Below, piece by piece: positions 31,998 to 60,452 of a DNA stretch of 64,000 bases. The number at the start of each line of letters is the position of its first letter. The stretch's first letter is position 1. Under the pieces are notes generated by a model. That model had not been told where the DNA came from. It was given only the letters and a program-made list of their open reading frames with translations, and did no database searches. Both the position numbers and the translations under genes were made by a program. The stretch covers positions 88,880-152,879 of the forward strand of contig DAKD01000016.1 in assembly GCA_002499085.1 (NCBI GenBank), given 5' to 3'. Source of the stretch: Methanomassiliicoccales archaeon UBA280. GTDB lineage: Archaea; Thermoplasmatota; Thermoplasmata; SG8-5.

Positions 31998-32200
31998 TCC
32001 AGATTCCTCCTCAAGTTCCGAAGTGCCCGCGTGCATCCGCGCATGCCGGCAATAAATATGCAGCTACATCTGATTTGAGCTATTTAATGTTTGTTGATTA
32101 TATCAAACATATTTATTCTTCATTAAAAGAAAACCCCACACAGGCATCTGCAACGAAACTCTTATCCCCAAGTTGCGGATTGAGGCACGGTGGTCATAGG

Positions 32201-41892: not shown

Positions 41893-42113
41893 CCTAGTAA
41901 ATGTTCAGTGTTTTGAAGTTCGGGACTCGGGAAAGGGGAATCGTACGGAATGGCTGCTTCGCTGTCATATTGTTCGGGACTCGGGAAAGGGGAAGGGGGA
42001 ACCGTACGGAATGGCTGTCAAATACAGCCATTGATTCCGTCGACGCTTCCCGCTTCCCGCTTCCCGACCTGGCAATAGTCACACCTTCATTTCACTGAAT
42101 GCTTACCCAGCCT
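41893..42113. repeat. intergenic tandem and inverted repeats between cca and nop5
   Basis: gttcgggactcgggaaaggggaaNcgtacggaatggctg occurs twice in tandem (41926 and 41982). A partial inverted copy cagccattgattccgtcgacgcttcccgcttcccgcttcccgac follows. Flanked by the direct repeat cccagcctagtaaatgttcagtg / cactgaatgcttacccagcctatc. Confidence 0.5.
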
Positions 42114-43183: not shown

Positions 43184-44188
43184 CTATTGCAGTTTTTTCC
43201 GGGACAGCTCGCCCGGTTTGAATATCCCGCGCTCCGTGATTATGCCGGTGATGTATCTGGCAGGCGTCATGTCGAAGGCCGGGTTTCTTGCGGTTGCGCC
43301 TTCGGGGCATATCAACTTGCCGCCGACAAACCTCACTTCGTCCTGGCCCCTCTCCTCTATCGGAATGTCCGCTCCGGATTTCAGGGAGAAATCGAATGTG
43401 CTGACAGGCGCAGCAGTGTAGAAAGGTATTCCGTTCTCCTTGGCCAGCACTGCCTTCTCGTATGTCCCTATCTTGTTGGCAAAGTCCCCGTTGGCGGCTA
43501 TCCTGTCCGCTCCCACAATGACAATGTCAACCTCGCCGCGCTGCATGAAATGGCCTGCCGCATTGTCCGGTATGATGTTATGGGGTATGCCCTCCTGCAT
43601 AAGTTCCCATGAAGTGAGGGCCGCTCCCTGAAGGCGCGGTCTGGTCTCGTCAGCCAGAACCGTTATCCCCTTGCCCGAGCGGTGGGCCGCCCTAATCGGT
43701 GCGAGCGCAGTGCCGTGGTCAACAGTGGCAAGGGCTCCGGCGTTGCAATGCGTGAGAATTCTGTGGCCCCTATCAATCAAACCGTTACCGTGTTCCCCGA
43801 TCATTCGGCATTTCTCGACTATGCTGTCCGCGTATTCCTCGGAAGCACGGACAACATCCCTGCCTTCCGAAGAGGCTTCCAGCATTCTGTCCACTGCGTA
43901 GAACAGGTCGAATGCAGTCGGCCTTGTCCTCTTTAGCCTTGCCGCGGCCTCTTCAAGGTTGATACCTGTAACCTGGGCCAGGGCCATGCCGTAAGCTCCT
44001 GCGGCGCCAATGCTGGGCGCCCCCCTCACAGTCATGTCCTCGATGAACACGGCCACCTCTTCAACGGTTTTGGCGCTGACAATGTCGAACCTGTGGGGCA
44101 GAACCCTCTGGTCGATGAATTTCACAGCTCGGCCATCAAGCCAGAGCGCTCTAAGGTCCTGCTCCTTTCCGCCTGTTACGACTCTCAT
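43184..44188 (-). CDS. eIF-2B alpha/beta/delta-related isomerase (MtnA / ribose-1,5-bisphosphate isomerase family)
   Basis: LWLDGRAVKFIDQRVLPHRFDIVSAKTVEEVAVFIEDMTVRGAPSIGAAGAYGMALAQ and ILTHCNAGALATVDHGTALAPIRAAH are the hallmark family motifs. Confidence 0.8.
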   Translation of the reverse strand: MRVVTGGKEQDLRALWLDGRAVKFIDQRVLPHRFDIVSAKTVEEVAVFIEDMTVRGAPSIGAAGAYGMALAQVTGINLEEAAARLKRTRPTAFDLFYAVDRMLEASSEGRDVVRASEEYADSIVEKCRMIGEHGNGLIDRGHRILTHCNAGALATVDHGTALAPIRAAHRSGKGITVLADETRPRLQGAALTSWELMQEGIPHNIIPDNAAGHFMQRGEVDIVIVGADRIAANGDFANKIGTYEKAVLAKENGIPFYTAAPVSTFDFSLKSGADIPIEERGQDEVRFVGGKLICPEGATARNPAFDMTPARYITGIITERGIFKPGELSRKKLQ

Positions 44189-44279
44189 GCTCTCGTCCGG
44201 CCAAAACTCCCATGCTGTATTTCAGTGTTTCCGTCGCGCAATAGAAACATATATATCCAGACAGGTGGATTATCTCCAC

Positions 44280-45299
44280 ATGGAAGAGCAATCCCAAGGC
44301 GCAGGAAAAACGGTCATATCTGCCAGCGCCCTGGAAAAATTCGGATACTGCCCGCTCAGCTGGTGGCTGAGCAGGAACGAGCCAGATCCGGACTCGGAAC
44401 CCATGGATTCGGGAGAGAAGGCCCACACGGCAGTCGCGGAAGACCTGGGAAGCATAGTGCACGAAGAGAGCCAGGCCAAGATATTCGAGAGCATTGTCAT
44501 GTGGTTCGCCATAGCCGCAACGCTGATATCGATCATAGGCGTCTCGCTGCTCATAGAGGTGGGCCAGGATATCGGCATGATCATGGGCGTGATTGCGCTG
44601 ATTTGGATTCTTGCCGCCTGCTACTTCCTCTACAAGGCGGAAACAATGCCCCGCGGGGCATCGACCCTCAGATACCAGAGAATAATTCTCGTCTTCGCCA
44701 TAGTCGCGGCCGTGTTCGGGGTGAATTCAGTCACACTCCTTTCGGGATTCTTCCAACCCAAAGTGGCCCAGATCCTTCAGGCAATATCGCTCGCATGGCT
44801 GATAGCCGCAAGCTATTTTCTATATCACTCGCTCAAGAGATTCGAGCAGGCTGTGTTCAAGAGGCGCAAGCATCAGGTAAAACATCAGATAACCTATGTC
44901 GACACGAATGACAGAAAGCCAAAACTTTTCATATCCGCGAAGTACGGTTTATCAGGCAGGCCGGATTACGTGATAATGTCGGATGAGGAGCACATACCCG
45001 TCGAAATGAAGACCGGAAGGGTCCCCAGAGGGCCGCTTTTTTCCCACATTCTTCAGGTCGCAGCCTACTGCATCCTGATGGAGGAAGAGTTTGGGACTCC
45101 TCCGTCCCACGGAATCCTTAGGTATGGCCAGTCAGAACATGTGGTGGATTACGACCTCGCTCTAAAGCAGATGGTCATCATGAAGCTTGACGAGATGCGT
45201 GCCATTATGCGGAGCGGGGCAGCGCACCGCAACCACAATAAGGAGGGCAAATGCCGCCACTGCTCCCGGAGACCTATATGCCCCGAAAAACTGATTTGA
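44280..45299 (+). CDS. Cas4/DUF83-like PD-(D/E)XK nuclease with Fe-S Cys cluster and a four-helix transmembrane insertion
   Basis: N-terminal ISASALEKFGYCPLSWWL (Cas4 first Cys). Four hydrophobic helices at residues about 70-200. Core GRPDYVIM (motif II), PVEMKTG (ExK), QVAAYCILMEE (QxxxY), C-terminal KCRHCSRRPIC (CxxC...C). Start moved to Met 44280. Confidence 0.6.
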   Translation: MEEQSQGAGKTVISASALEKFGYCPLSWWLSRNEPDPDSEPMDSGEKAHTAVAEDLGSIVHEESQAKIFESIVMWFAIAATLISIIGVSLLIEVGQDIGMIMGVIALIWILAACYFLYKAETMPRGASTLRYQRIILVFAIVAAVFGVNSVTLLSGFFQPKVAQILQAISLAWLIAASYFLYHSLKRFEQAVFKRRKHQVKHQITYVDTNDRKPKLFISAKYGLSGRPDYVIMSDEEHIPVEMKTGRVPRGPLFSHILQVAAYCILMEEEFGTPPSHGILRYGQSEHVVDYDLALKQMVIMKLDEMRAIMRSGAAHRNHNKEGKCRHCSRRPICPEKLI

Positions 45300-45341
45300 T
45301 AGGCAGTACTATTATTAATTAGAATTAATTGTCTATATTAT

Positions 45342-46703
45342 ATGGATGCGCCGAACCAGCCGCCACCGCCCTATTCGGGCCCGCAGGCACAGCCGCCCTA
45401 TTATGCACCCCAGTACACGCCTCCTCCTCCGCCGCAGAACCCGCTGAGGGAACTTCTCAACATGGCCAAGGCGATGCTGTGGAGCACGAGTTTTATCTCA
45501 TACCTCATACTCTTACTGTTCAGCCTCACCATTGTGCTTGCGATGACCCCGGCGATTCAGCACTGGATACTGACGCCCTACCCGGGCGTTTCGGACTCCT
45601 CGGCCATGCTGTACCATGAAGATATATTCCTCATAACGCCCTTTTACGTCCACCTATTCTATCTGGACGGTTCCGGCTTTCAGGCATGGCACATTCTCAT
45701 TTTGGGGATTCTTGTCGCGGGCTTCGCCCAGGCAATACACGGCCTATGGAAAAAATGGCTTTCAAGGCCGAATCAGATTGCGGTCTCACTTACAGCCCCA
45801 GGCAAAGCCGACAGCAGCCTGGAGGGCATAGCCAAGCTATTCATGGCATCCATGTCTTTCAGTTTCATTTACTTCCTTTTTCTGTATGTCATCGGCGTCG
45901 AGATGAGAACTCCGAACTTCGACAGCCTTTCAACGCCGCATCTGATATACGTGCTTTTCAGCGCCTCCGTGTTCGAGGAACTCATCTCCAGGGTTTTGCT
46001 CATTGGCGTCCCGCTTGTGTTTCTCGGAATCCTGTTGAAATGGAAGCAGCCGCACAGGAAGATACTCGGCGGCGGATTGGACCTCACACCCATGACATTT
46101 GCACTGATCGCCATCTCCGCAACGATATTCGCCTTTGCCCATGTTGGGGGGTGGGACTACTGGAAGGTTCCGCAGGTACTCATTCCCGGATTCGCGCTTG
46201 GCTGGGCCTTCGTCAGGTACGGCCTACACGCATCGATGCTGATACATTTCTCGATAAACTGCACGGATTTGGCCACAGAGATATGGCCCGACAACATGGC
46301 TGTTCTGTCCGCTCTGGGCTTCGTATACCTGATTTGGATAGTCGCAGGAACCTATTTCATGTATGTCTTCTCGAGAAAACTGCTGAGCAAGTTCCTCCCG
46401 AAACCCGCTCCCATGCCAGTCCAGCCGCCCGTCCCGCAGTATTCATATCCCCAGCCCATCTATGCCCAGCAGGCGGCGCCTCCTCAGGCATATTATCCGC
46501 CTCCCCAGCCGCAATACCCAAATTACCCGCCACCGCAACCTCCTCCGCATCCAATGCAGCAGGGCGGCTTCGTATGCCCAGGTTGCGGCCATACCGGCGC
46601 CACATACGAGCCCGGGAAACTGATATGCCTGAGATGCGGACAAACTTACTACAGGCAAGCACCCGCGGCTCCGCCTCCCGACAAAGAGCAGTTCGAATTC
46701 TGA
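45342..46703 (+). CDS. CPBP-family (CAAX/Abi) intramembrane metalloprotease with Pro-rich termini and C-terminal zinc ribbon
   Basis: Motifs VFEELISRVLL (EExxxR), FAFAHVGGWDY (FxxxH), HFSINCT (HxxxN). Multiple TM helices. N-terminal PPPYSGPQAQPPYYAPQYTPPPPPQNP. C-terminal CPGCGH...CLRCGQ. Confidence 0.65.
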   Translation: MDAPNQPPPPYSGPQAQPPYYAPQYTPPPPPQNPLRELLNMAKAMLWSTSFISYLILLLFSLTIVLAMTPAIQHWILTPYPGVSDSSAMLYHEDIFLITPFYVHLFYLDGSGFQAWHILILGILVAGFAQAIHGLWKKWLSRPNQIAVSLTAPGKADSSLEGIAKLFMASMSFSFIYFLFLYVIGVEMRTPNFDSLSTPHLIYVLFSASVFEELISRVLLIGVPLVFLGILLKWKQPHRKILGGGLDLTPMTFALIAISATIFAFAHVGGWDYWKVPQVLIPGFALGWAFVRYGLHASMLIHFSINCTDLATEIWPDNMAVLSALGFVYLIWIVAGTYFMYVFSRKLLSKFLPKPAPMPVQPPVPQYSYPQPIYAQQAAPPQAYYPPPQPQYPNYPPPQPPPHPMQQGGFVCPGCGHTGATYEPGKLICLRCGQTYYRQAPAAPPPDKEQFEF

Positions 46704-47149: not shown

Positions 47150-47182
47150 AATAGAAAAAAAGTGGTGGATTTTTCCACCACT
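47150..47182 (-). terminator. intrinsic terminator (perfect hairpin + U7) for the small minus-strand gene
   Basis: On the minus strand: gtggtggaaaaatccaccac followed by ttttttt, immediately after the stop codon. Confidence 0.5.
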
Positions 47183-47418
47183 TACTTCTTCATTATTTTC
47201 ATCCAGCCGTTGCTCTCGTAGATCTGGAGTCTCCTGGATACCAGGGTCTTCTTGAATTCGTCCCAGTCTATTGTCTCGAGGCGGGGATTCCTTCCCTTCG
47301 TGAACTGGACTCCCTTCGTTCCCTTCACGCGGCCCGGCTTCAGATTCTTCCTCTTGGCAACCTCTATTGCCTTGTCCACACTTATCGGTTCCATTGCCAT
47401 TCTTTTTCCTCCAATCAC
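47182..47418 (-). CDS. small basic hypothetical protein
   Basis: 78-aa ORF (MAMEPISVDKAIEVAKRKNLKPGRVKGTKGVQFTKGRNPRLETIDWDEFKK). Has its own terminator. Function not recognisable. Confidence 0.4.
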   Translation of the reverse strand: MIGGKRMAMEPISVDKAIEVAKRKNLKPGRVKGTKGVQFTKGRNPRLETIDWDEFKKTLVSRRLQIYESNGWMKIMKK

Positions 47419-49141: not shown

Positions 49142-49338
49142 GTGATATTGAGACCAGTTGCGAGGGTCTAGGGTCTGCGCTTTCAAAATGGGATAAAGGG
49201 TCTAGGGTCTAGGGTCTTTGTTCATAGAACGGCACAAAGGGTCTAGGGAGACTAGCTTGGTTCGGACACGCCAGTAAATGCGATTTGGAAGCGCCCTAGA
49301 CCCTATGACCCTAGACCCTAGCCCCTAGCCCCTGAACC
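49142..49338. repeat. copy B of ~200-bp (GGGTCTA)n-armed palindromic repeat element
   Basis: gtgatattgaga..gagggtctagggtctGCGCTTTCAAAATGGGATAAAgggtctagggtctagggtc ... CCAGTAAATGCGATTTGGAAGCGccctagaccctatgaccctagaccctagcccctagcccc. Carries the insert tttgttcatagaacggcacaaag shared with the 35384-35436 arm. Confidence 0.6.
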
Positions 49339-51004: not shown

Positions 51005-52960
51005 ATGACCCGCGCCAAGGAATATGACGAGGCTGTGAACTGGCTTTTTGAGCTCCAGTATTTCGGCATGAAGCTTGGCCTGGACAACACCAGGGCGCTG
51101 CTCTCCGAAATGGGGAACCCCCATGAAAAATTCCCTTCGGTCCATGTCGCCGGAACAAACGGAAAGGGTTCAGTATGCGCTTTCCTCACGGGCATGTTGA
51201 TTGATGCCGGGCTGAAGGTCGGCACCTACACATCTCCGCATCTTTCCGAGTTCGGGGAACGGATTTGCGTGAACGGCTTTCCCATGACCAGGGCCGAGAT
51301 CCTGCGGTCCGTCGGTCAAATAAGGCCGAAGGTCGAAGCCCTTGAAAGGAAAGGGGTGCAGTGCACGTTCTTCGAGGTCACGACATGCATGGCATTCAGG
51401 CAGTTCGCCAGGCGGAAGGTCGACATCGCGGTGGTCGAGGTCGGCATGGGCGGCAGGCTCGATTCCACCAACGTGATAAAGCCCGAGCTCAGCATAATCA
51501 CGAACATATCCAGGGAGCACATGCAGCACCTGGGCGAAACCCTGGCCGAGATAGCTTCCGAGAAGGCAGGCATAATAAAGAGGGGCATTCCCGTCGTATC
51601 GTCTGTCCAGGAGAGGGACGCGGCCAATGTCATTGAGTCAAAAGCCCGGAAATTGAGTGCCAAGCTCTTCAGGATACATGAATCTGCGAAGTGGCGCATA
51701 GAAGCGACCAGCAGCCTCGGTTCGATACTTACTGTTCGGACCAGGGACAATGAATACGGCCCGGTGAGGATTCGGCTTCCGGGCGAGCATCAGGCAGTCA
51801 ATGCCTCGACATCGGTTCTGGCGGCCGAGATACTGGCAGGGAGAGGTTTTTCCATCTCCGGAGAGAACATTCTCAGGGGACTGGAATCGACAAGATGGGC
51901 GGCCCGTCTACAGACTGTCCGTCTGAATCCCGCGGTGATACTTGATGCCACGCACAATCCCGGCGGCGCCGAAGCTCTGGCCGAATTCCTGAAATCCCAT
52001 TTCACAAGGAAGAAGCCGGTCATGGTCATTGCGATGCTGGAGGACAAGGAGGTCGGGCCGGTGGTAAGCCACCTGGAACCTCTTGTCCGGAAGGCAATAG
52101 TCTCCCAATCATCCTATCACAGGCGCATGAAGGCGGATGTGCTGGCATCGAATTTCAAAGGCGTTGCGGTTACCGAAGCGGACCTGCGCAAGGCAACAGA
52201 CCTCGCCATGGCTGCCGCCGGAAAGGACGGAACCGTTTTGATAACAGGGTCCATATTCACGGCGTCGGAGGCTCTTCGGCATCTCGACGAAATCAGAATC
52301 GCCGAGATAGTGCCAATTCTCCAGGAAGCTCACGGGATAGGCGCTTACCCGGGCAGGGATCCCGGGACACCCGGCCCGCCGGCACCGGGCTCCCAGGACC
52401 CGTTCAGGGTACTGATTTCCACAATCCTGTCGCAGCGCACCAAGGATGAGAACACGCATGCGGCGACAGAAGCCCTGTTCTCGAAGTTTGACACACCCGG
52501 CAAACTGGCGCGCGCGAGACCGGAGGACATCGAACCGCTCATCAAATCAGCAGGGTTCTACAGACAGAAGGCCAGAAACATCATCGGCGTGTCCAGGACA
52601 ATCCTGGACAGGTATTCGTCCAAGGTCCCCGCATCTATTGAGGAACTGACGGCCCTGCCCGGCGTGGGGAGGAAAACTGCCAATTGCGTGCTCTCATACG
52701 GATTCGGCCTGCCAGCAATCGCAGTCGACACCCATGTCCACAGGATATGCAATCTCATGGGCCTTGTGAATTCCGAATCACCGGAGGAAACCGAGAACCA
52801 ACTCGGGCTGAAAGTGAGACTTGAATATTGGCATGACATGAACCGGCTGCTTGTCAGGCACGGCCAGACAATATGCTTGCCTGTGAAGCCGAAATGCGGG
52901 AAATGTCCGGTGTCGCATCTCTGCGACAAAGGCATCTATTCCGATTGGCAGTCAAGCTGA
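51005..52960 (+). CDS. folC: folylpolyglutamate synthase/dihydrofolate synthase (FolC, Mur-ligase family) fused in-frame to endonuclease III (Nth, HhH-GPD + 4Fe-4S)
   Basis: N-terminal P-loop HVAGTNGKGSVCAF (Mur ligase). C-terminal PFRVLISTILSQRTKDE, LPGVGRKTANCVL (HhH-GPD), CLPVKPKCGKCPVSHLC (CX6CX2CX5C). No stop between the domains. A possible internal GTG start at IAEIVP. Confidence 0.75.
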   Translation: MTRAKEYDEAVNWLFELQYFGMKLGLDNTRALLSEMGNPHEKFPSVHVAGTNGKGSVCAFLTGMLIDAGLKVGTYTSPHLSEFGERICVNGFPMTRAEILRSVGQIRPKVEALERKGVQCTFFEVTTCMAFRQFARRKVDIAVVEVGMGGRLDSTNVIKPELSIITNISREHMQHLGETLAEIASEKAGIIKRGIPVVSSVQERDAANVIESKARKLSAKLFRIHESAKWRIEATSSLGSILTVRTRDNEYGPVRIRLPGEHQAVNASTSVLAAEILAGRGFSISGENILRGLESTRWAARLQTVRLNPAVILDATHNPGGAEALAEFLKSHFTRKKPVMVIAMLEDKEVGPVVSHLEPLVRKAIVSQSSYHRRMKADVLASNFKGVAVTEADLRKATDLAMAAAGKDGTVLITGSIFTASEALRHLDEIRIAEIVPILQEAHGIGAYPGRDPGTPGPPAPGSQDPFRVLISTILSQRTKDENTHAATEALFSKFDTPGKLARARPEDIEPLIKSAGFYRQKARNIIGVSRTILDRYSSKVPASIEELTALPGVGRKTANCVLSYGFGLPAIAVDTHVHRICNLMGLVNSESPEETENQLGLKVRLEYWHDMNRLLVRHGQTICLPVKPKCGKCPVSHLCDKGIYSDWQSS

Positions 52961-53598: not shown

Positions 53599-53718
53599 TC
53601 GTCAAGCTAATAGATAAAGGTTGGTCAACTCCCGAAATTCCCTCCGGGCACCAAATCTCCCCGGAATTATCAGTTTTTACGCAATTTGGCGTTATATTTA
53701 TAGTTGGACCAGCGACAG

Positions 53719-53755
53719 CTATATATATATTGATACTATTAATTGGAGCGAGAGG
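53719..53755 (+). promoter_or_regulatory. TATA-like promoter for the pilus-locus first gene
   Basis: gctatatatatattg at 53719-53733, about 25-35 nt upstream of ATG 53756 (short-leader transcript typical of archaea). Purine-rich ggagcgagagg precedes the ATG. Confidence 0.35.
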
Positions 53756-54814
53756 ATGTTGAGACCGAATTTTTTCCCTGTGCGCAGGCGCATCAATGAA
53801 ATCAGCCCCGGAACACGTGAGGCTGTGCGCATCAGACCCCGCATAAGGTGGGAGGAAGAGGGTGTGGCTTCCACAGTAGGGACAATCATGGCCCTGATGG
53901 TATTTCTGGCGTTTCTTTCAATGTTCACAAGCCAATATGTTCCAGTCTGGATGGAGGAGAACGAAGCCTCGCACATGAACGAGGCCTACGGCCAGTTTGC
54001 TGCCATGAAACAGGCAGTTGACATGCAGATACTGGCCGGCACGATACAGGGGACCTCGACCGTGCAGATGTTCTCGCCTATTAAATTGGGGGCAGAGGGA
54101 ATACCGATGTTCGCCTCGCCAACCCCGGGATACCTCACGCTTTCCCGTTCGGCCAGCTATGACAATGTGAGCTTCAGCTTCAACACCAGCGCTTCCATTG
54201 TCGACTATAACATGAACACGGGCGGCACGATCAAGCTGAAGGCGGAAAACAGGTACTATATCCAACAGGAGCTTGCCTTCGAGAACGATGCCATCATCCT
54301 CAAGCAGCCGGACGGCCAGTACATGAAAGCCATGCCCCAGCTTCGAATCACGCCCACGGGGACGGTGACTGCCACTGGCGGCATTGTATGCCAACTTTCC
54401 TACACGCAGGTCGACCTTCGCGGAGACGACGCCAATTACATAGGCTTCGGCACACGGGGCGTTTCCACGCTCATGAAGTCAACCACAACCACAACATTCA
54501 CAAACCTGACAGGGGAATCCGCACCGGGCGTGCCCGCCACTCATCCCTATCTATCGATAGTCCATACGGGTTATTACGAAAGGGCCTGGAACTCAAGCCT
54601 GAACCAGACGCTCTCAAGCGCCGGTCTGAGATGGGGCTTCGACATAACAAATGCGAACACGGATTACACTATCGTTTCCACACTGAAATCACCGCCCGGC
54701 TCGATCGAAAAGATGTGGGAAGTGCGCGTTTTGATAAAGACAGACGTAATCTCAAGCTTCTCGCTGACCGTGGCAAACATCGAGATATCCACCTCGGAAC
54801 TGGGGGCTGCGTAG
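53756..54814 (+). CDS. N-terminally membrane-anchored pilin-like/pilus-associated protein (class III signal-peptide-like TM followed by beta-rich domain)
   Basis: Charged N-region then RWEEEGVASTVGTIMALMVFLAFLSMF hydrophobic helix, then a Thr/Ser-rich beta domain. Its stop abuts the start of the ATPase gene (TAG ATG). Confidence 0.45.
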   Translation: MLRPNFFPVRRRINEISPGTREAVRIRPRIRWEEEGVASTVGTIMALMVFLAFLSMFTSQYVPVWMEENEASHMNEAYGQFAAMKQAVDMQILAGTIQGTSTVQMFSPIKLGAEGIPMFASPTPGYLTLSRSASYDNVSFSFNTSASIVDYNMNTGGTIKLKAENRYYIQQELAFENDAIILKQPDGQYMKAMPQLRITPTGTVTATGGIVCQLSYTQVDLRGDDANYIGFGTRGVSTLMKSTTTTTFTNLTGESAPGVPATHPYLSIVHTGYYERAWNSSLNQTLSSAGLRWGFDITNANTDYTIVSTLKSPPGSIEKMWEVRVLIKTDVISSFSLTVANIEISTSELGAA

Positions 54815-56506
54815 ATGGGAATGAAGCAGTCGATGATGTCAAAGATGCTAAGGAGCAAATCCCAGACGCTCAAAGTCAAGGTTCCGAAGGGCGTGATAGC
54901 CCTCGAGAAGAAATGGAAGGACGGCAAAGGCTCGCCGCTCTGCCCCATACCGGACATCACAACCCCGGGCATAGATGAGATAGAGATTTACACCATAAAG
55001 GAACCCTACAGCTATGCCAGGATAGTGTTTGACAACAACAACTCTGAATTCGTGTACCAGGTTCATGAACCCTCGCTCAACGAAGCCGAAGCGGAAGTCC
55101 TCAGGCTGATCAAGGATTCGCTCCAAAGGACGCTCGAGTATGAGCTGGACAAAATGGCCATTAAGGACAAGAGCGAGTACCTGAAGAAAAGCGTTGAGAG
55201 CTTCATAAAGAGCAGAGAGATGCGGCTCGAACCCGTGACAATCCAGAAGATTCACTATTATATCGCCAGGGACTTTGTCGGGTATGGTTCTGTCGACTCG
55301 CTCATGGGTGACCAGTACATCGAAGACATATCGTGCGACGGGACAAACGTACCGCTTTTCATTTATCACCAGAAATACGAGTCGATAAAGACAGACATCA
55401 AGTTCCAGGAGGAGAAGGACCTGAACAGCTTCGTCATCTACCTGGGACAGAGATGCGGCAAGCAGGTGTCCGTGTCTGCCCCCATCCTGGACGGGACCAC
55501 CGTCGAAGGGCACAGAGTACAGGCCACCTACGGGACCGAGGTCACCACAAGGGGCTCATCCTTCACAATCAGGCGTTACAAGGAGAAACCCTTCACTCCG
55601 GTTGAACTTATCACGTACGGCACGGCATCGCCGGAAATGGTTGCCTATGCCTGGATGCTTGTCGAGCATGGCCAATCCATGATCATTGCCGGCGGGACAG
55701 CAAGCGGCAAAACAGCCACGCTAAACGCGCTCGCGCTGTTCATCAGGCCCGGTGCCAAGGTCATCACGATGGAGGACACCAGGGAGATAAACCTGCCTCA
55801 CGAGAACTGGATACCCGGAACAACCAGGACCGGTGTCGGAGAGCGCGACAAAAGCGGAAAGGCCGCCGGCGAGATAAACATGTTCGAGCTTGTCAGGGCA
55901 GCGCTGAGGCAGAGGCCGGAATACATCATTGTCGGAGAAGTGAGGGGCGCGGAGACCGCCACCATGTTCCAGGCGATGGCAACAGGCCACACCACATATT
56001 CCACGATGCACGCGGACTCTGTCAAGAGCATGATCAACAGGCTTGAGAACCCGCCCATCAGCACGCCGAGGATTCTGCTCACATCCCTGAACTTCGTCAT
56101 CATCCAGAAGCATGTCAGGGTCGGCGACAGCATTGTCAGGCGCATAGTCCAGATTGTAGAACTGGTGGGATTCGAGCCCGAGACCAACGAGGTCATAACG
56201 AACATGGTCTACGAATGGAACCAGCGCACAGATGCGTTCATCTACAAGGGGCACAGCTTCATTCTTGACCAGATAATGGAAATGAAGAACATGACCCACG
56301 AGGAGATGAACACCGAGATGAAGAGGCGCGTCGACATCGTGAAGTACCTGGTGGAGAAGGACATCACCGACTTCAAGCTCATTTCCAACCTGGTTGTCGC
56401 CTATTACAAGGAACCCATGGAAACGATACAGAAGATAAGGGACGAGATGGGATGGATTACGGAAGAGAGCCTCGTGACCGACGGGGGTGCGAAGATTGGC
56501 GCATGA
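54815..56506 (+). CDS. type IV pilus / Tad-like secretion ATPase (FlaI/TadA/VirB11 superfamily), paralog 1
   Basis: Walker A IIAGGTASGKTATLNAL. Asp box IITMEDTREINLP. Walker B YIIVGEVRGAE. His box MATGHTTYSTMHADS. FlaI-like N-terminal domain of about 200 aa. Confidence 0.85.
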   Translation: MGMKQSMMSKMLRSKSQTLKVKVPKGVIALEKKWKDGKGSPLCPIPDITTPGIDEIEIYTIKEPYSYARIVFDNNNSEFVYQVHEPSLNEAEAEVLRLIKDSLQRTLEYELDKMAIKDKSEYLKKSVESFIKSREMRLEPVTIQKIHYYIARDFVGYGSVDSLMGDQYIEDISCDGTNVPLFIYHQKYESIKTDIKFQEEKDLNSFVIYLGQRCGKQVSVSAPILDGTTVEGHRVQATYGTEVTTRGSSFTIRRYKEKPFTPVELITYGTASPEMVAYAWMLVEHGQSMIIAGGTASGKTATLNALALFIRPGAKVITMEDTREINLPHENWIPGTTRTGVGERDKSGKAAGEINMFELVRAALRQRPEYIIVGEVRGAETATMFQAMATGHTTYSTMHADSVKSMINRLENPPISTPRILLTSLNFVIIQKHVRVGDSIVRRIVQIVELVGFEPETNEVITNMVYEWNQRTDAFIYKGHSFILDQIMEMKNMTHEEMNTEMKRRVDIVKYLVEKDITDFKLISNLVVAYYKEPMETIQKIRDEMGWITEESLVTDGGAKIGA

Positions 56507-57509
56507 GACACAGGACACCTTCAAGAAGCTCGAGACGAAGGACAGGCACCTCAAGACGAAGAAATCAAGGGAGGAAGCGGTCGCAGAACCGCATCTGATA
56601 AGGCTGCCCAAGGGCGCGGTTCCCGAGTACATCAAACTCTCTCCGTTCGAAGAGATGAGCTGGCGCGTGATGGGCAATTATGTCAAGTCCAAGTACACGG
56701 AGGACCAGGAGCTCGAGGAAAACCTCATGAAGGCCCACATGAAGATAAGGCCGGAGGAGTACATGGCCTTTGTCTACATGGCTGCAGCGGTCCTGTTCGG
56801 GGTCGCGCTCGTGGCCGGCATAGCCATCGCCCTGGTCTTCACTTTTCTGATGGACATGATGTTCATAGGCATTCTTCTGGCAATAGCGATGCCCATAGGC
56901 CTTCCCATCATGGCGCTTGTTGTGCTGAAGGGCTCGCCCGGCGGAAAGGCCAAGGCAAGGGCCAGGAACATCGACAAGAGAATCTCCTCCGCAATGAGCT
57001 TCATATCCGCAATGGCCTCGGCGAACGTGCCCGTTGACATGGTGTTCAAGGAGCTCTCAAGACAGCCTGTGTACGGGGAGATCCAGAAGGAGGCCGAATG
57101 GATAACCAGGGACACGGAACTGCTGGGCATCGATATCCTTACGGCCATCAAGAGGGGCGCGATGCGTTCCCCATCACAGAAATTCCAGGATTTCCTTCAG
57201 GGCGTGGTCACGACCTCGACATCAGGAGGCCAGCTCAAGCCCTATTTCCTGCTCAAAGCGACAGAGTACGAGAAAGAGAACAAACTCATACTCAAGAGCA
57301 CCATGGAAACGCTTTCCATGCTCGGAGAAAGCTACGTCACTGTGGTGGTGGCGTTCCCGCTGTTCCTGGTGGTCATATTGGCCATCATGGCCATCATCGG
57401 CGGGAATTCGGCCAACACCCTGATGATTCTGTACGCTGTCGTGGGATTGATGATCCCCCTCGCGCAGTTCGGATTCATCTTCGTGGTGTGGAACATAGGC
57501 CAGGAGTGA
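56487..57509 (+). CDS. T2SS-F domain membrane platform protein (TadB/FlaJ-half-like), 1 of 2
   Basis: 340-aa ORF overlapping the ATPase stop. TM helices FVYMAAAVLFGVALVAGIAIALVF, GILLAIAMPIGLPIMALVVL, VVVAFPLFLVVILAIMAIIGG. A single T2SS-F-like cytoplasmic domain. Confidence 0.65.
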   Translation: MRRLAHETQDTFKKLETKDRHLKTKKSREEAVAEPHLIRLPKGAVPEYIKLSPFEEMSWRVMGNYVKSKYTEDQELEENLMKAHMKIRPEEYMAFVYMAAAVLFGVALVAGIAIALVFTFLMDMMFIGILLAIAMPIGLPIMALVVLKGSPGGKAKARARNIDKRISSAMSFISAMASANVPVDMVFKELSRQPVYGEIQKEAEWITRDTELLGIDILTAIKRGAMRSPSQKFQDFLQGVVTTSTSGGQLKPYFLLKATEYEKENKLILKSTMETLSMLGESYVTVVVAFPLFLVVILAIMAIIGGNSANTLMILYAVVGLMIPLAQFGFIFVVWNIGQE

Positions 57510-57513
57510 TAAA

Positions 57514-58626
57514 ATGGCAATGAGCAAGGATGAGATGAAGAAGGTCGTGATGGCCCAGAAACGGGATTACACCAGGCTCATCCTTGCCGTGAGCGGCGCC
57601 GTGTTCGCCCTGTTCCTGGTATTCGCCATGTTGAACCTCACGGACCAGGTTGACTGGTCACTGAAACAGCTCCCCACCACCGACCTTAACGAGAACGGCG
57701 TCATCGACAGGCCATACGAAGTGGGTCTGGACACCAACGAGAACGGCATCATAGACTCGGGGGACGTGTTCGACGGCCATGATTCCGGGGACCCTTGGGA
57801 CTTGGACGGGGACGGCGATAGAACCGAGATGGACGGGATCCCCGACCAAGCGCAATCGCCTTTGCAGCGGATGCTCAATTTCATTTTCATAGGTCTGGGC
57901 TTCATGATAGGTCCGTATGCGTTCTACTCCTCGAAAAAGCAGCAGAACATCAAGGAAATCGAGAGAAGGCTTCCGGACTTCCTCAGAGATGTGGCCGAAG
58001 CCGGAAGGTTCGGCATGACGCTTGCCGACGCGATAGTGGTCGCGTCCTCGGGCAGATACGGCGACCTCACCCCGGAGATTAAGAAGATGGCCGCCCAGAT
58101 CGAATGGGGCGTCACCGCCGGGGAAACCCTGAGGCTGTTCTCGGAGCGGGTGAATACCCCGCTGGTCAAGAGAGTGGTGACGATTGTCGTGAAGGCGAGC
58201 GACGCAGGCGGCAGCGTTGCGGACGTTCTCTCGATGGTCGCGCATGACACCAAGGAGGAGCAGTTCTCGGCGGCCGAGAGGAGGCTCCAGATGAGCACAT
58301 ATCTCGCTGTCATCTACATCTCTTTCTTCGTGTTCCTGGTGACCATAATCATCCTGAACCTCACTTTCCTGCCCAAGATAAGGATTGCCGGAACCAATGT
58401 GGCCGCGGCAGCGGCCGCGGCAGGCATCGAGGGCGGAGTGGGCGGGGCATCGCTGGACGTTAGCGCGATTCCGATGATACAGATCGCGTTCTTCCTTGCC
58501 GTCATGGCGCACGCCATCGGCGACGGCATCATGGCCGGCGTCCTGCAGACAGGAAGCGTGGCCGACGGCATGCGTCACAGCGTTATCATGCTCATTATGG
58601 GATTCCTAATACTGACGGTGATGTAG
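57514..58626 (+). CDS. T2SS-F domain membrane platform protein (TadC/FlaJ-half-like), 2 of 2, with extracytoplasmic EF-hand/dockerin-like Ca-binding insertion
   Basis: T2SS-F-like segment VKASDAGGSVADVLSMVAHDTKEEQFSAAERRLQMSTYLAVIYISFFVF. Insertion DLNENGVIDRPYEVGLDTNENGIIDSGDVFDGHDSGDPWDLDGDGDRTEMDGIPD (57679-57850) after the first TM helix. Confidence 0.65.
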   Translation: MAMSKDEMKKVVMAQKRDYTRLILAVSGAVFALFLVFAMLNLTDQVDWSLKQLPTTDLNENGVIDRPYEVGLDTNENGIIDSGDVFDGHDSGDPWDLDGDGDRTEMDGIPDQAQSPLQRMLNFIFIGLGFMIGPYAFYSSKKQQNIKEIERRLPDFLRDVAEAGRFGMTLADAIVVASSGRYGDLTPEIKKMAAQIEWGVTAGETLRLFSERVNTPLVKRVVTIVVKASDAGGSVADVLSMVAHDTKEEQFSAAERRLQMSTYLAVIYISFFVFLVTIIILNLTFLPKIRIAGTNVAAAAAAAGIEGGVGGASLDVSAIPMIQIAFFLAVMAHAIGDGIMAGVLQTGSVADGMRHSVIMLIMGFLILTVM

Positions 58627-58628
58627 AA

Positions 58629-60326
58629 ATGGCGGACGCAGCGGCTGAGATGCAGGAAGAGACCCTTGATGTCAGGAAGAAGGGGCCGGGCGCACTCGGA
58701 AACATGAAGAAATCCTACATGAAGAAGCTTGCGGGCAAGAAGGCCATGAAGATAGTGGCGCCCGTCGGCTCCCAGCAAGCCGAAAGGAAGCTGGTCGAAG
58801 GCGTCACGACAATACCGAAGATAGTCGAGAAGCACATCAGGGAGATCGAAATACAGCCTGTCATCGACGGCTATTCCTATGTCAGAATCAAATATGACAA
58901 TATCTCCAACGATTACATGTACGAGGTCATTGAACCGAGGCTCACGGAGGAAGAGGAGGACATCCTCGAGGTTCTCAAGGAGACGCTGATTGACTCGCTC
59001 GAGATGCTTGTGGACGCGAAAAAGGAGGAGAAGGAAGAATATCTCAGGAAAGCCATAGAGACCCTCCTGGCCGACATAGGTGTGAGCCTGAACCCGATCT
59101 CAAGGGAGCGCGTGACCTATTACATACTCCGCGACTTCCTCAGGTACGGAGCCATTGACGTTGCGATGATCGACCCCCAGGTGGAGGACTGCTCCTGCGA
59201 CGGCATGAACGTCCCGCTGTACATATTCCACAGGAAGTACGGCTCGATCCAGTCAAATCTCAGATTCAAGACATCCGAGGAGCTGGACGGCTTCGTCGTA
59301 TGGCTTGCCCAGCGCTGCGGCAAGCACATCTCCGTGGCAGAGCCCATGCTTGACGCCACGATACCGGACGGCTCGAGGCTGCAGGCGACTCTGGGGACGC
59401 ATGTCACAAAGCGCGGCTCGTCGTTCACCATCAGGAGGTTCAGGGAGAACCCGTTCACGCCCCTGGACATGATACGGTTCAAAACAATGTCCCTGGACAT
59501 GATGGCCTATCTGTGGCTCTGCATAGAGAACGGCAAGTCCATTCTCGTGTGCGGAGGCACTGCGAGCGGAAAGACCACGACTCTCAATGCAGTCCTGCTG
59601 TTCATCCCGCCGCAGATGAAGATAGTCAGCATCGAGGACACAAGGGAACTTAACTTACCGCATGAGAACTGGGTGCCCCTGCTCACCAGGCACGGCTTCG
59701 GGGGCAAGGACGCCTCCGGGAAAGCAGCCGGAGAGATTGACATGTTCGAGCTTCTCACGGCCGCGCTGAGGCAGCGCCCCCAGTACATGATGGTCGGTGA
59801 GGTCAGAGGCTCGGAAGCCTATGTCGTCTTCCAGGCCATGGCGACGGGCAAGAGCGCTTACACAACTTTCCACGCGGAAAGCGTCCAGGCCATGGTTCAC
59901 AGGATGGAGCAGCCTCCCATCGAGGTTCCCCGCGCCTTGCTGAGCGCCCTCAACATGGTTCTGATACAGGCCCAGGTCAAGGTGGGCACGAAGATGACCA
60001 GGCGCGTCAAATCGCTGACTGAGGTGGTGGGCATTGACCCGGACAACAACGAGCTGATAACAAATTCGGTCTATGTTTGGAACCCTGCGGACGACACCTT
60101 CAACTACTCAGGCCACAGCTACATCTACGAGCAGATAGCCGTGACAAAGGGCTGGAGCCAGCGCGAGATGATGCGAGAGGTGAAACGCCGCACAAGGCTT
60201 CTCCAGTACCTGCGGAGCAAGAACGTCAGCTACAAGAACATGGCCAAGTACGTCTCGGCCTATTACAAGGACCCGGACAAGGTCATGAGGGAAGTCGACG
60301 ACTCGGGATTCGTGGCCGAGGAATAG
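58629..60326 (+). CDS. type IV pilus / Tad-like secretion ATPase (FlaI/TadA superfamily), paralog 2
   Basis: Walker A LVCGGTASGKTTTLNAV. Asp box IVSIEDTRELNLP. Walker B YMMVGEVRGSEA. His box MATGKSAYTTFHAES. Collinear with paralog 1 (motifs shared, sequences diverged). Confidence 0.85.
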   Translation: MADAAAEMQEETLDVRKKGPGALGNMKKSYMKKLAGKKAMKIVAPVGSQQAERKLVEGVTTIPKIVEKHIREIEIQPVIDGYSYVRIKYDNISNDYMYEVIEPRLTEEEEDILEVLKETLIDSLEMLVDAKKEEKEEYLRKAIETLLADIGVSLNPISRERVTYYILRDFLRYGAIDVAMIDPQVEDCSCDGMNVPLYIFHRKYGSIQSNLRFKTSEELDGFVVWLAQRCGKHISVAEPMLDATIPDGSRLQATLGTHVTKRGSSFTIRRFRENPFTPLDMIRFKTMSLDMMAYLWLCIENGKSILVCGGTASGKTTTLNAVLLFIPPQMKIVSIEDTRELNLPHENWVPLLTRHGFGGKDASGKAAGEIDMFELLTAALRQRPQYMMVGEVRGSEAYVVFQAMATGKSAYTTFHAESVQAMVHRMEQPPIEVPRALLSALNMVLIQAQVKVGTKMTRRVKSLTEVVGIDPDNNELITNSVYVWNPADDTFNYSGHSYIYEQIAVTKGWSQREMMREVKRRTRLLQYLRSKNVSYKNMAKYVSAYYKDPDKVMREVDDSGFVAEE

Positions 60327-60419: not shown

Positions 60420-60452
60420 TGGGAGCCGGTATCCGGCTCCCATTCTCGTTTA
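60420..60452. terminator. hairpin between convergent genes (possible bidirectional terminator)
   Basis: gggagccgg tat ccggctccc followed by attctcgttt. Lies between the ATPase stop (60326) and the stop of the minus-strand gene (60450). Confidence 0.4.

What the first reader, a model, noticed from the sequence alone, without database searches (positions are those of the whole stretch)
44280..46703. Membrane-embedded Cas4/DUF83-like nuclease adjacent to a CPBP (Abi-type) intramembrane protease with zinc ribbon
ORF 44280-45299 has the Cas4 signatures: an N-terminal Cys helix (GYCPLSWW), RecB motifs (GRPDYV, PVEMKTG, QVAAYCILMEE) and a C-terminal KCRHCSRRPIC cluster. Unlike Cas4, it has about 130 residues forming four predicted TM helices inserted between the N-terminal Cys and the nuclease core. 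No CRISPR array or cas genes are nearby. Directly downstream, 43 bp away on the same strand, is a CPBP-family protease (EExxxR / FxxxH / HxxxN) with Pro-rich tails and a CxxC...CxxC ribbon. CPBP/Abi proteins recur in abortive-infection and immunity contexts. A membrane-tethered 4Fe-4S nuclease paired with an intramembrane protease is a plausible two-gene membrane-associated defense or DNA-processing module. I do not recognise it as a described system.
Basis: partly seen in the sequence, partly recalled or inferred. Interest (0 to 1): 0.65.

Follow-up and report, generated by a model that had tools for sequence, protein, structure and literature searches.

The report
Membrane-embedded solo Cas4 nuclease of Thermoplasmata
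The gene really encodes a Cas4-type DNA nuclease with four membrane-spanning helices spliced into its middle, and it is a conserved stand-alone gene in several hundred Thermoplasmata archaea; its pairing with the neighbouring membrane protease is local gene order, not a two-gene defence system.

Summary
ORF 44280-45299 (339 aa) has every Cas4 signature: one N-terminal Cys plus three C-terminal Cys, and His, D, ExK and QxxxY. About 120 residues forming four TM helices are inserted between the N-terminal Cys/His segment and the nuclease core. ORF 45342-46703 is a CPBP/Rce1-like protease with Pro-rich tails and a zinc ribbon.

The two-gene defence reading is not supported. The TM-Cas4 occurs in at least 331 species-level genomes. 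All that carry names are Thermoplasmata or Methanomassiliicoccales-type MAGs. The CPBP gene is adjacent in only 10 of 80 sampled loci. Those are the closest relatives, and they keep the whole housekeeping neighbourhood.

Other clades have different neighbours: an LTD plus double-PLD (Nuc-like) surface protein, a TPD/CDIN1-like nuclease, MtnA, or L15e. No CRISPR arrays, cas genes, defence islands, viruses or plasmids are involved.

The TM insert is a duplicated hairpin, present in 2 copies here and in more copies in longer relatives. It is under stronger purifying selection than the nuclease core, and both soluble halves are predicted to be cytoplasmic.

Best reading: a vertically inherited, membrane-integral solo-Cas4 nuclease that acts on DNA at the inner face of the membrane. 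This is a new variant of a known kind. Its biological role is not established.

The parts
44248..44258 (+). TATA-like element (catatatatcc) about 25-30 nt upstream of the ATG at 44280. It implies an own promoter and a leaderless or near-leaderless mRNA.
   Evidence: Read directly from the sequence. An equivalent BRE/TATA-like box (AAAGGTCTAAAG or ATATAAG) lies at the same distance upstream of the orthologous start codon in clade-B loci. Promoter function is inferred, not shown.
44280..45299 (+). TM-Cas4 gene (339 aa plus stop): a Cas4-family PD-(D/E)XK nuclease with a membrane insertion.
44280..44477 (+). N-terminal cytoplasmic segment (residues 1-66). It carries Fe-S ligand C24 (44349-44351) and the motif-I His49, on a helix that runs straight into TM1.
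   Evidence: C24 and H49 are invariant in 67 sequences. The segment aligns weakly to the N-terminus of type I-C Cas4 8D3L, 'FCKRQW...EGQHLH'. The model shows helix 40-91 as continuous.
44478..44645 (+). TM hairpin repeat 1 (residues 67-122: TM1 ~70-92 and TM2 ~98-118, with motif LIWILAACYFLY).
   Evidence: Hydropathy. The model shows helices 40-91 and 96-122. Repeat 1 against repeat 2 by hhalign gives probability 99.3%, E 2e-20.
44658..44837 (+). TM hairpin repeat 2 (residues 127-186: TM3 ~132-154 and TM4 ~163-183, with motif LAWLIAASYFLY).
   Evidence: The K/R-rich segment after TM4 (mean 5.1 K+R) and loop 2-3 (2.6), against outer loops of 0.7 and 0.3, support an N-in/C-in topology.
44838..45296 (+). 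Cytoplasmic linker and nuclease core (residues 187-339). It contains D229 (44964-44966), E242/K244 (45003-45011), Q259/Y263, the family-specific HRNH motif (316-319) and Fe-S ligands C325/C328/C334 (45252-45281).
   Evidence: Pfam, NCBIfam and PADLOC Cas4 profile matches. PDB sequence matches to 8D3L and 4IC1. Foldseek top hits are Cas4 in 7MI5, 8D3L and 8D3Q. pLDDT in the core is ~87-97.
45300..45341 (+). AT-rich 42-bp spacer with a TATA-like run (tattattaatt) about 25 nt upstream of the CPBP ATG.
   Evidence: Read directly from the sequence. Independent transcription of the CPBP gene is inferred, not shown.
45342..46703 (+). CPBP/Rce1-like intramembrane glutamic protease gene (453 aa). It is a clade-specific neighbour, not a demonstrated partner.
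   Evidence: Pfam PF02517 at 40.5 bits. There are at least 6 hydrophobic segments. EExxxR, FxxxH and HxxxN are invariant in 11 orthologues. The family has only 38 detectable homologues.
46290..46370 (+). Last TM helix of the CPBP protein (residues 317-343, LIWIVAGTYFMY). It resembles TM2 and TM4 of TM-Cas4.
   Evidence: The CPBP HMM hits Cas4TM ORFs at E 6e-8 to 1e-3. An HMM built only from Cas4TM proteins that have no CPBP neighbour finds this helix as the only other hit among window ORFs, at E 1.2e-3 and 13.7 bits. The motif regex occurs nowhere else in the window. The signal is weak and its meaning is unresolved.
46569..46640 (+). C-terminal CxxC...CxxC zinc ribbon of the CPBP protein, preceded by a Pro-rich linker.
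   Evidence: Weak Pfam zinc-ribbon matches over residues 406-438. The Cys residues are invariant in orthologues.
43184..44188 (-). Divergently transcribed MtnA (S-methyl-5-thioribose-1-phosphate isomerase, IF-2B family). It is the most widely recurring neighbour of TM-Cas4 across clades, adjacent in 16 of 80 loci.
   Evidence: NCBIfam TIGR00512 at 384 bits and Pfam IF-2B. Adjacency is seen in several synteny groups and in both orientations. No functional link has been shown.

Best explanation
ORF 44280-45299 encodes a membrane-integral 'solo' Cas4-family nuclease. It is a complete RecB-type PD-(D/E)XK catalytic domain with a four-cysteine [4Fe-4S] site. Two copies of a two-helix membrane hairpin are inserted between the N-terminal Cys/His helix and the catalytic beta-sheet. 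Both soluble halves face the cytoplasm and must re-associate beneath the membrane to build the active site (H49 with D229/E242/K244) and the cluster (C24 with C325/C328/C334).

The gene is a vertically inherited, strongly constrained, stand-alone gene of Thermoplasmata with its own promoter. It is not part of CRISPR-Cas, a mobile element or a defence island. The downstream CPBP protease is a neighbour by clade-specific synteny.

Inferred mechanism: the enzyme sits on the inner face of the cytoplasmic membrane and cuts or resects DNA ends that come close to the membrane. The most plausible substrate is DNA entering the cell, whether scavenged, transferred or viral. Under this reading the conserved hairpin bundle does more than anchor the protein; it would serve in oligomerisation, partner binding or coupling to the membrane.

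Shown here: the architecture, conservation, distribution, gene context and predicted topology. Inferred: nuclease activity, Fe-S binding, the substrate and the biological role.
For: Cas4 identity:
- Profile matches are above curated cut-offs.
- Catalytic and Cys residues are invariant or conserved in at least 90% of 67 homologues.
- PDB sequence matches are to Cas4 8D3L and SSO0001 4IC1.
- The AlphaFold model (pLDDT 77 overall, ~87-97 in the core) has Cas4 structures as its best Foldseek matches.

Membrane insertion:
- There are four hydrophobic helices.
- K+R distribution fits the positive-inside rule for an N-in/C-in topology.
- The insert is an internal duplication (hhalign probability 99.3%).
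- Relatives of 500-645 aa carry additional hairpin repeats (three to four matched copies of the unit) in front of the same core.

Constraint:
- dN/dS against the closest orthologue is 0.041 overall, 0.016 in the TM insert and 0.045 in the core.
- Amino-acid identity tracks that of housekeeping neighbours such as MtnA, PurH and Nop5.

Distribution:
- More than 1000 full-length homologues were found.
- 331 species-representative genomes carry it, and all named ones are Thermoplasmata-type.
- There is no full-length match in viral contigs, phages or plasmids.

Context:
- Neighbours are housekeeping genes and differ between clades.
- 89 of 90 loci have no CRISPR array.
- A TATA-like box lies at a conserved distance from the start codon.

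Support for a DNA-at-the-membrane role, circumstantial only:
- In 37 of 80 loci the gene directly follows a membrane-anchored secreted LTD plus 2x PLDc_2 protein. That protein's best family matches are the nucleases DrmC and NucT rather than cardiolipin synthase.
- In 16 of 80 loci it directly follows a TPD/CDIN1-type PD-(D/E)XK protein.
Against: - No activity, metal or localisation data exist.
- TM pLDDT is only 55-70.
- The topology rests on the positive-inside rule alone.
- No neighbour is universal, so context gives no firm functional clue.
- The PLD and TPD associations each lie within one large clade that also keeps other neighbours (c4/c3, Aminotran_5). They may simply be inherited synteny.
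- The PLD protein's matches are all below curated cut-offs, so it could act on lipids rather than DNA.
- A core, vertically inherited gene could equally serve repair, replication-end processing or segregation.
- The weak similarity between the TM helices of the CPBP protein and TM-Cas4 leaves a small chance of a real interaction in this clade.
Confidence: 0.6

Rival explanations
1. One reading: TM-Cas4 and the CPBP protease form a two-gene membrane-associated defence or abortive-infection module. For example, the protease would activate or release the nuclease on infection.
For: - The genes are on the same strand, 42 bp apart.
- Adjacency is kept in all 10 sampled close relatives, and in further metagenomic contigs where both proteins share a contig length.
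- The last TM helix of the CPBP protein resembles TM2 and TM4 of TM-Cas4.
Against: - Adjacency is limited to one clade in which the whole ~17-kb housekeeping block is syntenic.
- The other 70 of 80 loci have no CPBP nearby.
- CPBP relatives at ~30% identity sit elsewhere, without Cas4TM.
- The helix motif is already present, in degenerate form, in those unlinked CPBP relatives. It is therefore not a product of the pairing.
- The CPBP evolves about twice as fast (dN 0.16 against 0.07; identities).
- Each gene has its own TATA-like element.
- There is no PADLOC model match for the CPBP and no defence island.
- The gene is core-like in distribution rather than patchy.
Confidence: 0.07
2. TM-Cas4 is a trans-acting CRISPR adaptation factor, a solo Cas4 that works with Cas1-Cas2 encoded elsewhere. 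It would capture prespacers from DNA as it enters at the membrane.
For: - It scores above the TIGR00372 cas4 equivalog cut-off.
- Its best structural matches are Cas4 subunits of Cas4-Cas1-Cas2 complexes.
- Solo Cas4 genes are common in archaea (PMC5704561).
Against: - No CRISPR array lies within +/-8 kb in 89 of 90 loci or in the 64-kb window.
- No cas Pfam family appears in any annotated context.
- Its conservation and synteny resemble a housekeeping gene.
- Membrane tethering of both halves would hinder docking on Cas1-Cas2 in the way seen in 7MI5 and 8D3L. This last point is inference.
Confidence: 0.08
3. TM-Cas4 is a housekeeping DNA-repair or chromosome-maintenance nuclease. Its membrane location would serve cell-cycle functions, such as processing DNA ends or clearing DNA at the division site, rather than handling incoming DNA.
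For: - It is inherited vertically and evolves at a housekeeping-like rate.
- Its neighbours include MtnA, Nop5, CCA enzyme, MetRS, gyrase, ribosomal L15e and FtsZ in different lineages.
- The related nucleases Dna2, AddB/AdnAB and MGME1, all recovered by Foldseek, are repair or replication enzymes.
Against: - Nothing in the context points specifically to repair genes.
- It does not explain why repair would need an integral-membrane nuclease with a highly constrained hairpin array.
- The recurrent extracellular LTD-PLD neighbour fits envelope-linked DNA handling better.
Confidence: 0.22

Closest known systems
Cas4 (PF01930 / TIGR00372; structures SSO0001 4IC1, Pcal_0546 4R5Q, type I-C Cas4 8D3L, Cas4-Cas1 7MI5)
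   Same: It has the same PD-(D/E)XK core, with His, D, ExK and QxxxY motifs, and the 1+3 cysteine arrangement of the [4Fe-4S] site. Profile scores are above curated cut-offs, and Cas4 structures are the best structural matches.
   Different: - About 120 residues of membrane hairpins are inserted inside the domain.
- It has a family-specific HRNH motif before the Cys cluster and an extended GRxPRGPLFSH segment.
- It has no cas or CRISPR neighbours.
- It is restricted to Thermoplasmata.
Solo-Cas4 genes of archaea (Hudaiberdiev et al. 2017, PMC5704561; Methanosarcina mazei Solo-Cas4, PMC12501428)
   Same: It is a Cas4-family gene encoded away from cas loci on the chromosome, with an unknown cellular role.
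   Different: The described solo-Cas4 proteins are soluble. The words 'transmembrane', 'Thermoplasma' and 'Methanomassiliicocc' do not occur in the main text of the 2017 phylogenomic survey, and full-text searches found no description of a membrane-inserted Cas4.
RecB-family Fe-S nucleases of end-processing machines (AddB/AdnAB, Dna2, MGME1)
   Same: It shares the fold and, for AddB and Dna2, the Fe-S 'staple' that joins an N-terminal Cys to C-terminal Cys residues (established knowledge of these families).
   Different: It has no helicase or other soluble partner domain, and it is integral to the membrane.
Membrane-associated defence assemblies with nuclease effectors (Kiwa KwaA/KwaB, PMC11785009; Zorya)
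   Same: Conceptually, a DNA-targeting activity is placed at the inner membrane, where foreign DNA enters.
   Different: Those systems are multi-gene, patchily distributed and located in defence islands. Their TM and effector parts are separate proteins. Here there is one core-like gene, and the only PADLOC matches are to Cas4 and DruK PD-(D/E)XK nuclease domain models.
CPBP / Rce1-like intramembrane glutamic proteases (PF02517), for ORF B
   Same: It has the EExxxR, FxxxH and HxxxN motifs on a multi-pass membrane core, and its Pfam score is above the cut-off.
   Different: It has Pro-rich tails and a C-terminal zinc ribbon, and distant relatives also have an N-terminal one. This is a small lineage-specific subfamily of 38 detectable homologues.

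Membership tests
Cas4-family nuclease (PF01930 / TIGR00372) | Profile score at or above the curated cut-off | tested here: met
   TIGR00372 scores 73.7 bits against a cut-off of 65. PF01930 scores 34.7 against 22.7. PF12705 scores 54.9 against 22. The matches cover only the part C-terminal to the insertion.
Cas4-family nuclease (PF01930 / TIGR00372) | RecB motifs II and III (D ... ExK) and the QxxxY motif | tested here: met
   K244, Q259 and Y263 are invariant, and D229 and E242 are conserved in at least 90% of 67 homologues. They align to the GRAD / IEIK / QLQIY motifs of SSO0001 (4IC1) and to 8D3L.
Cas4-family nuclease (PF01930 / TIGR00372) | Four Cys for a [4Fe-4S] cluster: one N-terminal and three C-terminal (CxxC...C) | tested here: met
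   C24, C325, C328 and C334 are invariant in 67 homologues and present in the long variants. Actual cluster binding cannot be tested here.
Cas4-family nuclease (PF01930 / TIGR00372) | Motif-I metal-binding His on the N-terminal helix | tested here: inconclusive
   H49 is invariant. It aligns to 'EGQHLH' of 8D3L only in a weak domain of 4.8 bits.
Cas4-family nuclease (PF01930 / TIGR00372) | Cas4 fold | tested here: met
   Foldseek against the PDB gives 7MI5, 8D3L and 8D3Q Cas4 as top hits (E ~1e-4, probability 1.00), followed by Dna2, AdnAB, ACE1, Pcal_0546 and MGME1.
Cas4-family nuclease (PF01930 / TIGR00372) | Compact soluble single domain of about 170-220 aa | tested here: not met
   A 120-residue, four-TM insertion splits the domain.
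Cas4-family nuclease (PF01930 / TIGR00372) | Metal-dependent DNA exo/endonuclease activity | not testable with these tools
   This needs biochemistry.
CRISPR-associated Cas4 (adaptation module) | Encoded next to cas1/cas2 or other cas genes, or next to a CRISPR array | tested here: not met
   There is no array in the window or in 89 of 90 loci. No cas families appear in the annotated contexts.
CPBP / Rce1-like intramembrane protease (ORF B) | PF02517 match above the cut-off, with EExxxR, FxxxH and HxxxN/D motifs on TM helices | tested here: met
   The match scores 40.5 bits against a cut-off of 22.4. The motifs are invariant in 11 orthologues. The protein has multiple hydrophobic segments.
Two-gene defence system (TM-Cas4 plus CPBP) | Pair conserved across divergent lineages, independently of surrounding synteny | tested here: not met
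   The pair occurs in 10 of 80 loci. All 10 are in one clade with full block synteny. Distant CPBP relatives are unlinked.
Two-gene defence system (TM-Cas4 plus CPBP) | Defence-island or mobile-element context, with patchy distribution | tested here: not met
   Neighbours are housekeeping genes. There is no viral or phage match and no full-length plasmid match. The gene is present in at least 331 species genomes of one class.
Two-gene defence system (TM-Cas4 plus CPBP) | Protection against viruses or plasmids | not testable with these tools
   This needs a challenge experiment.

The most novel reading that the evidence does not exclude
TM-Cas4 may be a membrane-coupled (gated) nuclease of a DNA-handling apparatus in the archaeal envelope.

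The hairpin bundle separates the lid half (C24, H49) from the core half (D/ExK, three Cys). Both join the membrane through continuous helices (40-91 and 160-198). The packing of the TM helices could therefore open or close the active site and the Fe-S staple.

The enzyme would act on DNA crossing or touching the membrane. In the largest clade it would work together with the outward-facing LTD plus double-PLD (NucT/DrmC-like) nuclease encoded immediately upstream and the two small membrane proteins encoded immediately downstream. It would serve either as an uptake and scavenging route or as a RecBCD-like innate barrier to incoming linear DNA.
Probability: 0.2. Interest if true: 0.75.

Novelty: new variant of a known kind. 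Interest (0 to 1): 0.5.

Why it matters
Cas4 and its RecB-family relatives are known as soluble enzymes. A version whose catalytic domain is split by a conserved, duplicated membrane hairpin array, fixed across a whole archaeal class, would place a DNA-end nuclease permanently at the inner membrane face.

How archaea take up, restrict or recycle DNA at the envelope is largely unknown, and the role of solo-Cas4 genes is an open question. This family offers a concrete, testable candidate. It also comes with candidate envelope partners in other clades: the LTD-PLD protein and two small membrane proteins.

For the finding as written, the result is corrective. The nuclease-protease 'module' is a neighbourhood effect.

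Tried and rejected
1. CPBP pairing. I tested it by tblastn of window neighbours against 80 loci, by an HMM of 11 CPBP orthologues, and by a motif regex against all ORFs within about 5 kb of the gene. No CPBP appears outside the closest clade. The reverse look-up of distant CPBP relatives shows no Cas4TM nearby.

2. Defence system. PADLOC gives only Cas4 and DruK domain-level hits for ORF A and nothing for ORF B.

3. Mobile element or virus. There are no viral-contig or phage hits, and plasmids match only the C-terminal Cas4 domain.

4. CRISPR link. No arrays were found.

5. Non-coding RNA in the region. There are no Rfam or tRNA hits in the window.

6. Is the TM module found in other protein types? 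A phmmer search with residues 1-204 against 1.8 billion representatives returned 107 proteins. The full-length ones I inspected all carry the same Cas4 core.

7. Naive all-ORF clustering was swamped by shadow ORFs in these GC-rich genomes. I replaced it with greedy non-overlapping calls plus HMMs.

8. dN/dS beyond the closest orthologue was unusable because dS is saturated.

10. Literature searches for a membrane-inserted Cas4 found nothing relevant. The library is incomplete, so an earlier description cannot be excluded.


Full report
**What is at the coordinates**

An identical public contig (GCA_002497815.1, a UBA MAG) carries the same two gene calls.

ORF A matches PDDEXK_1 (1.6e-14) and Cas_Cas4 (2.4e-8) in Pfam. 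It scores 73.7 bits on the NCBIfam cas4 equivalog TIGR00372, whose cut-off is 65. All these matches fall in residues ~186-335.

A profile of 67 homologues matches type I-C Cas4 (8D3L) and SSO0001 (4IC1) in the PDB. The alignment includes a weak stretch from the N-terminal 'YCPLSWW...GEKxH' to 'FCKRQW...EGQHLH'.

An AlphaFold model built on the 67-sequence alignment has pLDDT 77 overall, ~87-97 in the core and 55-70 in the membrane part. Its best Foldseek matches are Cas4 subunits (7MI5, 8D3L, 8D3Q), followed by Dna2, AdnAB, ACE1, Pcal_0546 and MGME1.

C24, H49, K244, Q259, Y263, C325, C328 and C334 are invariant in 67 homologues, and D229 and E242 are conserved in at least 90% of them.

**The insertion**

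Hydropathy and the model give helices at ~70-92, 98-118, 132-154 and 163-183. Across 67 sequences the two short loops carry 0.7 and 0.3 K+R on average. Loop 2-3 carries 2.6 and the segment after TM4 carries 5.1. By the positive-inside rule the N- and C-terminal halves are both cytoplasmic. That is what a shared Fe-S cluster and a shared active site require.

The insert is an internal duplication. Hairpin 1 against hairpin 2 gives hhalign probability 99.3% and E 2e-20, with a shared motif (A)LxWLxAxxYFLY.

A phmmer search with residues 1-204 against 1.8 billion representatives found 107 proteins. The full-length ones I inspected all had the same Cas4 core. They include 500-645-aa forms in which phmmer matched three or four copies of the hairpin unit. 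The hairpin is therefore a modular repeat.

The insert is not a passive anchor. Against the closest orthologue, dN/dS is 0.016 in the insert, 0.045 in the core and 0.041 overall, although dS is near saturation. Family-wide pairwise identity is 51% in the insert.

**Distribution**

More than 1000 full-length homologues exist in public data. A pattern scan of one genome per GTDB species found relatives in 331 genomes. The 80 best, and all named members of more distant clusters, are Thermoplasmata, Methanomassiliicoccales or 'Methanobacteriota' MAGs.

Nothing was found in IMG/VR viral contigs or GenBank phages. Plasmids match only the C-terminal Cas4 domain. Amino-acid identity between orthologues tracks that of neighbouring housekeeping genes. 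In L001, for example, Cas4TM is 86% identical, MtnA 85%, PurH 83% and Nop5 77%.

**Is the CPBP gene a partner?**

The CPBP gene is adjacent in 10 of 80 loci. All 10 have Cas4TM identity of 64% or more, and all retain the whole block CCA-Nop5-MtnA | Cas4TM | CPBP-small ORF-TPR-PurH-FolC.

An HMM of the CPBP orthologues and a motif regex found no CPBP protein in the other 70 loci, within about 5 kb of the gene.

The CPBP subfamily is small, with 38 detectable homologues. Its ~30%-identical members lie between CYTH and AP-endonuclease/PolD genes, without Cas4TM.

The CPBP protein diverges about twice as fast. Both genes have an AT-rich TATA-like element about 25-30 nt upstream of their ATG. The same arrangement is seen upstream of Cas4TM in other clades, even inside the 3' end of the preceding gene. 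This points to separate leaderless transcripts, which is an inference.

PADLOC has no model matching the CPBP. The window's other genes are glycine cleavage, a tRNA methyltransferase, PurH, FolC-Nth, a type IV pilus-like cluster and large surface proteins. This is not a defence island.

One observation favours a link. The last TM helix of the CPBP protein (LIWIVAGTYFMY) resembles TM2 and TM4 of TM-Cas4. An HMM built only from Cas4TM proteins without a CPBP neighbour picks this helix as its only other hit among window ORFs. The hit is weak, at 13.7 bits and E 1.2e-3. A degenerate form of the motif is already present in the unlinked distant CPBP relatives. I record it as unexplained, not as evidence for a complex.

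**What else sits next to the gene**

- In 45 of 80 loci, two small membrane proteins (c4, ~105 aa; c3, ~165 aa; no family match) are encoded convergently. In most of these loci c4 ends about 3 nt from the end of Cas4TM.
- In 37 of those loci, a secreted, C-terminally anchored LTD plus 2x PLDc_2 protein of 670-915 aa lies directly upstream on the same strand. Its best NCBIfam and PADLOC matches are the nucleases DrmC and NucT, ahead of cardiolipin synthases. All are below the curated cut-offs.
- In 16 loci, a TPD-domain (PF14811, CDIN1-like) protein lies directly upstream.
- MtnA is adjacent in 16 loci, across several synteny groups and in both orientations.
- Long-variant lineages place the gene beside ribosomal protein L15e. 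Another lineage places it beside MetRS and gyrase.

No partner is universal. The only constant is the gene itself. None of these partner genes is in the window.

**Mechanism**

Shown here:
- a complete Cas4 catalytic and Fe-S residue set;
- a conserved, duplicated membrane hairpin insert;
- a predicted N-in/C-in topology;
- core-like vertical inheritance;
- independence from CRISPR, mobile elements and the CPBP gene.

Inferred: the protein is an active, Fe-S-containing DNA nuclease held at the inner face of the membrane, acting on DNA ends there.

I consider processing of DNA that enters the cell the most likely role, at about 0.3-0.35. This could be scavenging or uptake, or a RecBCD-like barrier to linear foreign DNA. 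The reasons are the obligatory membrane location and the recurrent outward-facing Nuc-like PLD neighbour. A housekeeping repair or segregation role is next, at about 0.2-0.25. A trans-acting adaptation role and the CPBP two-gene model are each below 0.1.

An attractive but untested point concerns the position of the insertion. It lies exactly between the lid half (C24, H49) and the core half, and both are connected to the membrane by continuous helices. Packing of the TM bundle could therefore gate the active site.

**Comparison and novelty**

The protein meets the sequence and fold criteria of the Cas4 family, except that it is not a compact soluble domain. It does not meet the criterion of CRISPR association, so it is a solo-Cas4.

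The main text of the 2017 Cas4 phylogenomics paper contains no mention of transmembrane segments or of these lineages. Full-text searches found no description of a membrane-inserted Cas4. Databases label members simply as 'Cas4' or 'PD-(D/E)XK nuclease'.

I rate it a new variant of a known kind, of moderate interest. The architecture is real, widespread and apparently undescribed. The two-gene defence reading that motivated the finding does not hold, and the function remains inferential.

Noticed in passing
L015-L080 (e.g. L049:6071-8167, L015:5336-7993); not present in the window: In 37 of 80 related loci the TM-Cas4 gene directly follows a membrane-anchored secreted protein with a lamin-tail domain and two PLD domains. 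That protein's best matches are the nucleases DrmC and NucT. In GC-rich genomes its ORF runs ~145 nt into the Cas4TM gene and contains the Cas4TM TATA box.
   Followed up: partly
e.g. L071:2688-3023 (-) and L059:5784-6308 (-): Two small membrane proteins with no family match (c4 ~105 aa, c3 ~165 aa) are encoded convergently, in most cases ending ~3 nt from the end of TM-Cas4, in 45 of 80 loci. This includes loci that lack the PLD gene. They are the most persistent neighbours outside the window's own clade.
   Followed up: partly
e.g. L073:3419-4222 (+): In 16 loci of the Methanomassiliicoccaceae type, a TPD-domain protein (PF14811, the family of human CDIN1/C15orf41, a predicted PD-(D/E)XK nuclease) lies directly upstream of TM-Cas4 on the same strand.
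   Followed up: partly
window 46290-46370 compared with 44580-44640 and 44770-44830: The last TM helix of the CPBP protein (LIWIVAGTYFMY) resembles TM2 and TM4 of TM-Cas4 (LIWILAACYFLY, LAWLIAASYFLY). In six-frame translations of the window and of 985 kb of related loci, the motif occurs only in these two protein families. The statistical support is weak (13.7 bits) and its meaning is unknown.
   Followed up: partly
window 47182-47418 (-): A small basic ORF (78 aa here, 72 aa in the public call) has no Pfam match. It is 96% identical in genomes whose flanking housekeeping genes are only 70-85% identical, so it is unusually conserved.
   Followed up: partly
window 51005-52960 (+): A single 651-aa ORF fuses a FolC-type Mur-ligase (folylpolyglutamate synthase-like) to an endonuclease III-type HhH-GPD glycosylase with its Fe-S loop. 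The fusion is kept in the close relatives.
   Followed up: partly
window 11843-18328 (-) and 18528-32036 (-): Two giant ORFs of 2161 and 4502 aa lie in tandem on the minus strand. They are presumably surface proteins. I did not examine them.
   Followed up: no
window 53621-60326 (+): A type IV pilus / secretion-like cluster with two PilB-like ATPases (T2SSE) and two PilC-like membrane proteins (T2SSF) lies about 8 kb downstream of TM-Cas4. No link to it has been shown.
   Followed up: no
window 41920-42017 and 49163-49244: There are short intergenic direct repeats: two 37-nt copies 61 nt apart between the CCA-enzyme and Nop5 genes, and AGGGTCT-bounded 41-nt tandem copies upstream of purH. Neither has an Rfam match.
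   Followed up: no
window 60450-63959 (-): A 1169-aa protein combines CARDB domains with several zinc-ribbon / double-zinc-ribbon modules. Pro-rich linkers followed by zinc ribbons on membrane proteins recur in this genome. Examples are the CPBP protein here and the c9 family in loci L051-L076.
   Followed up: no
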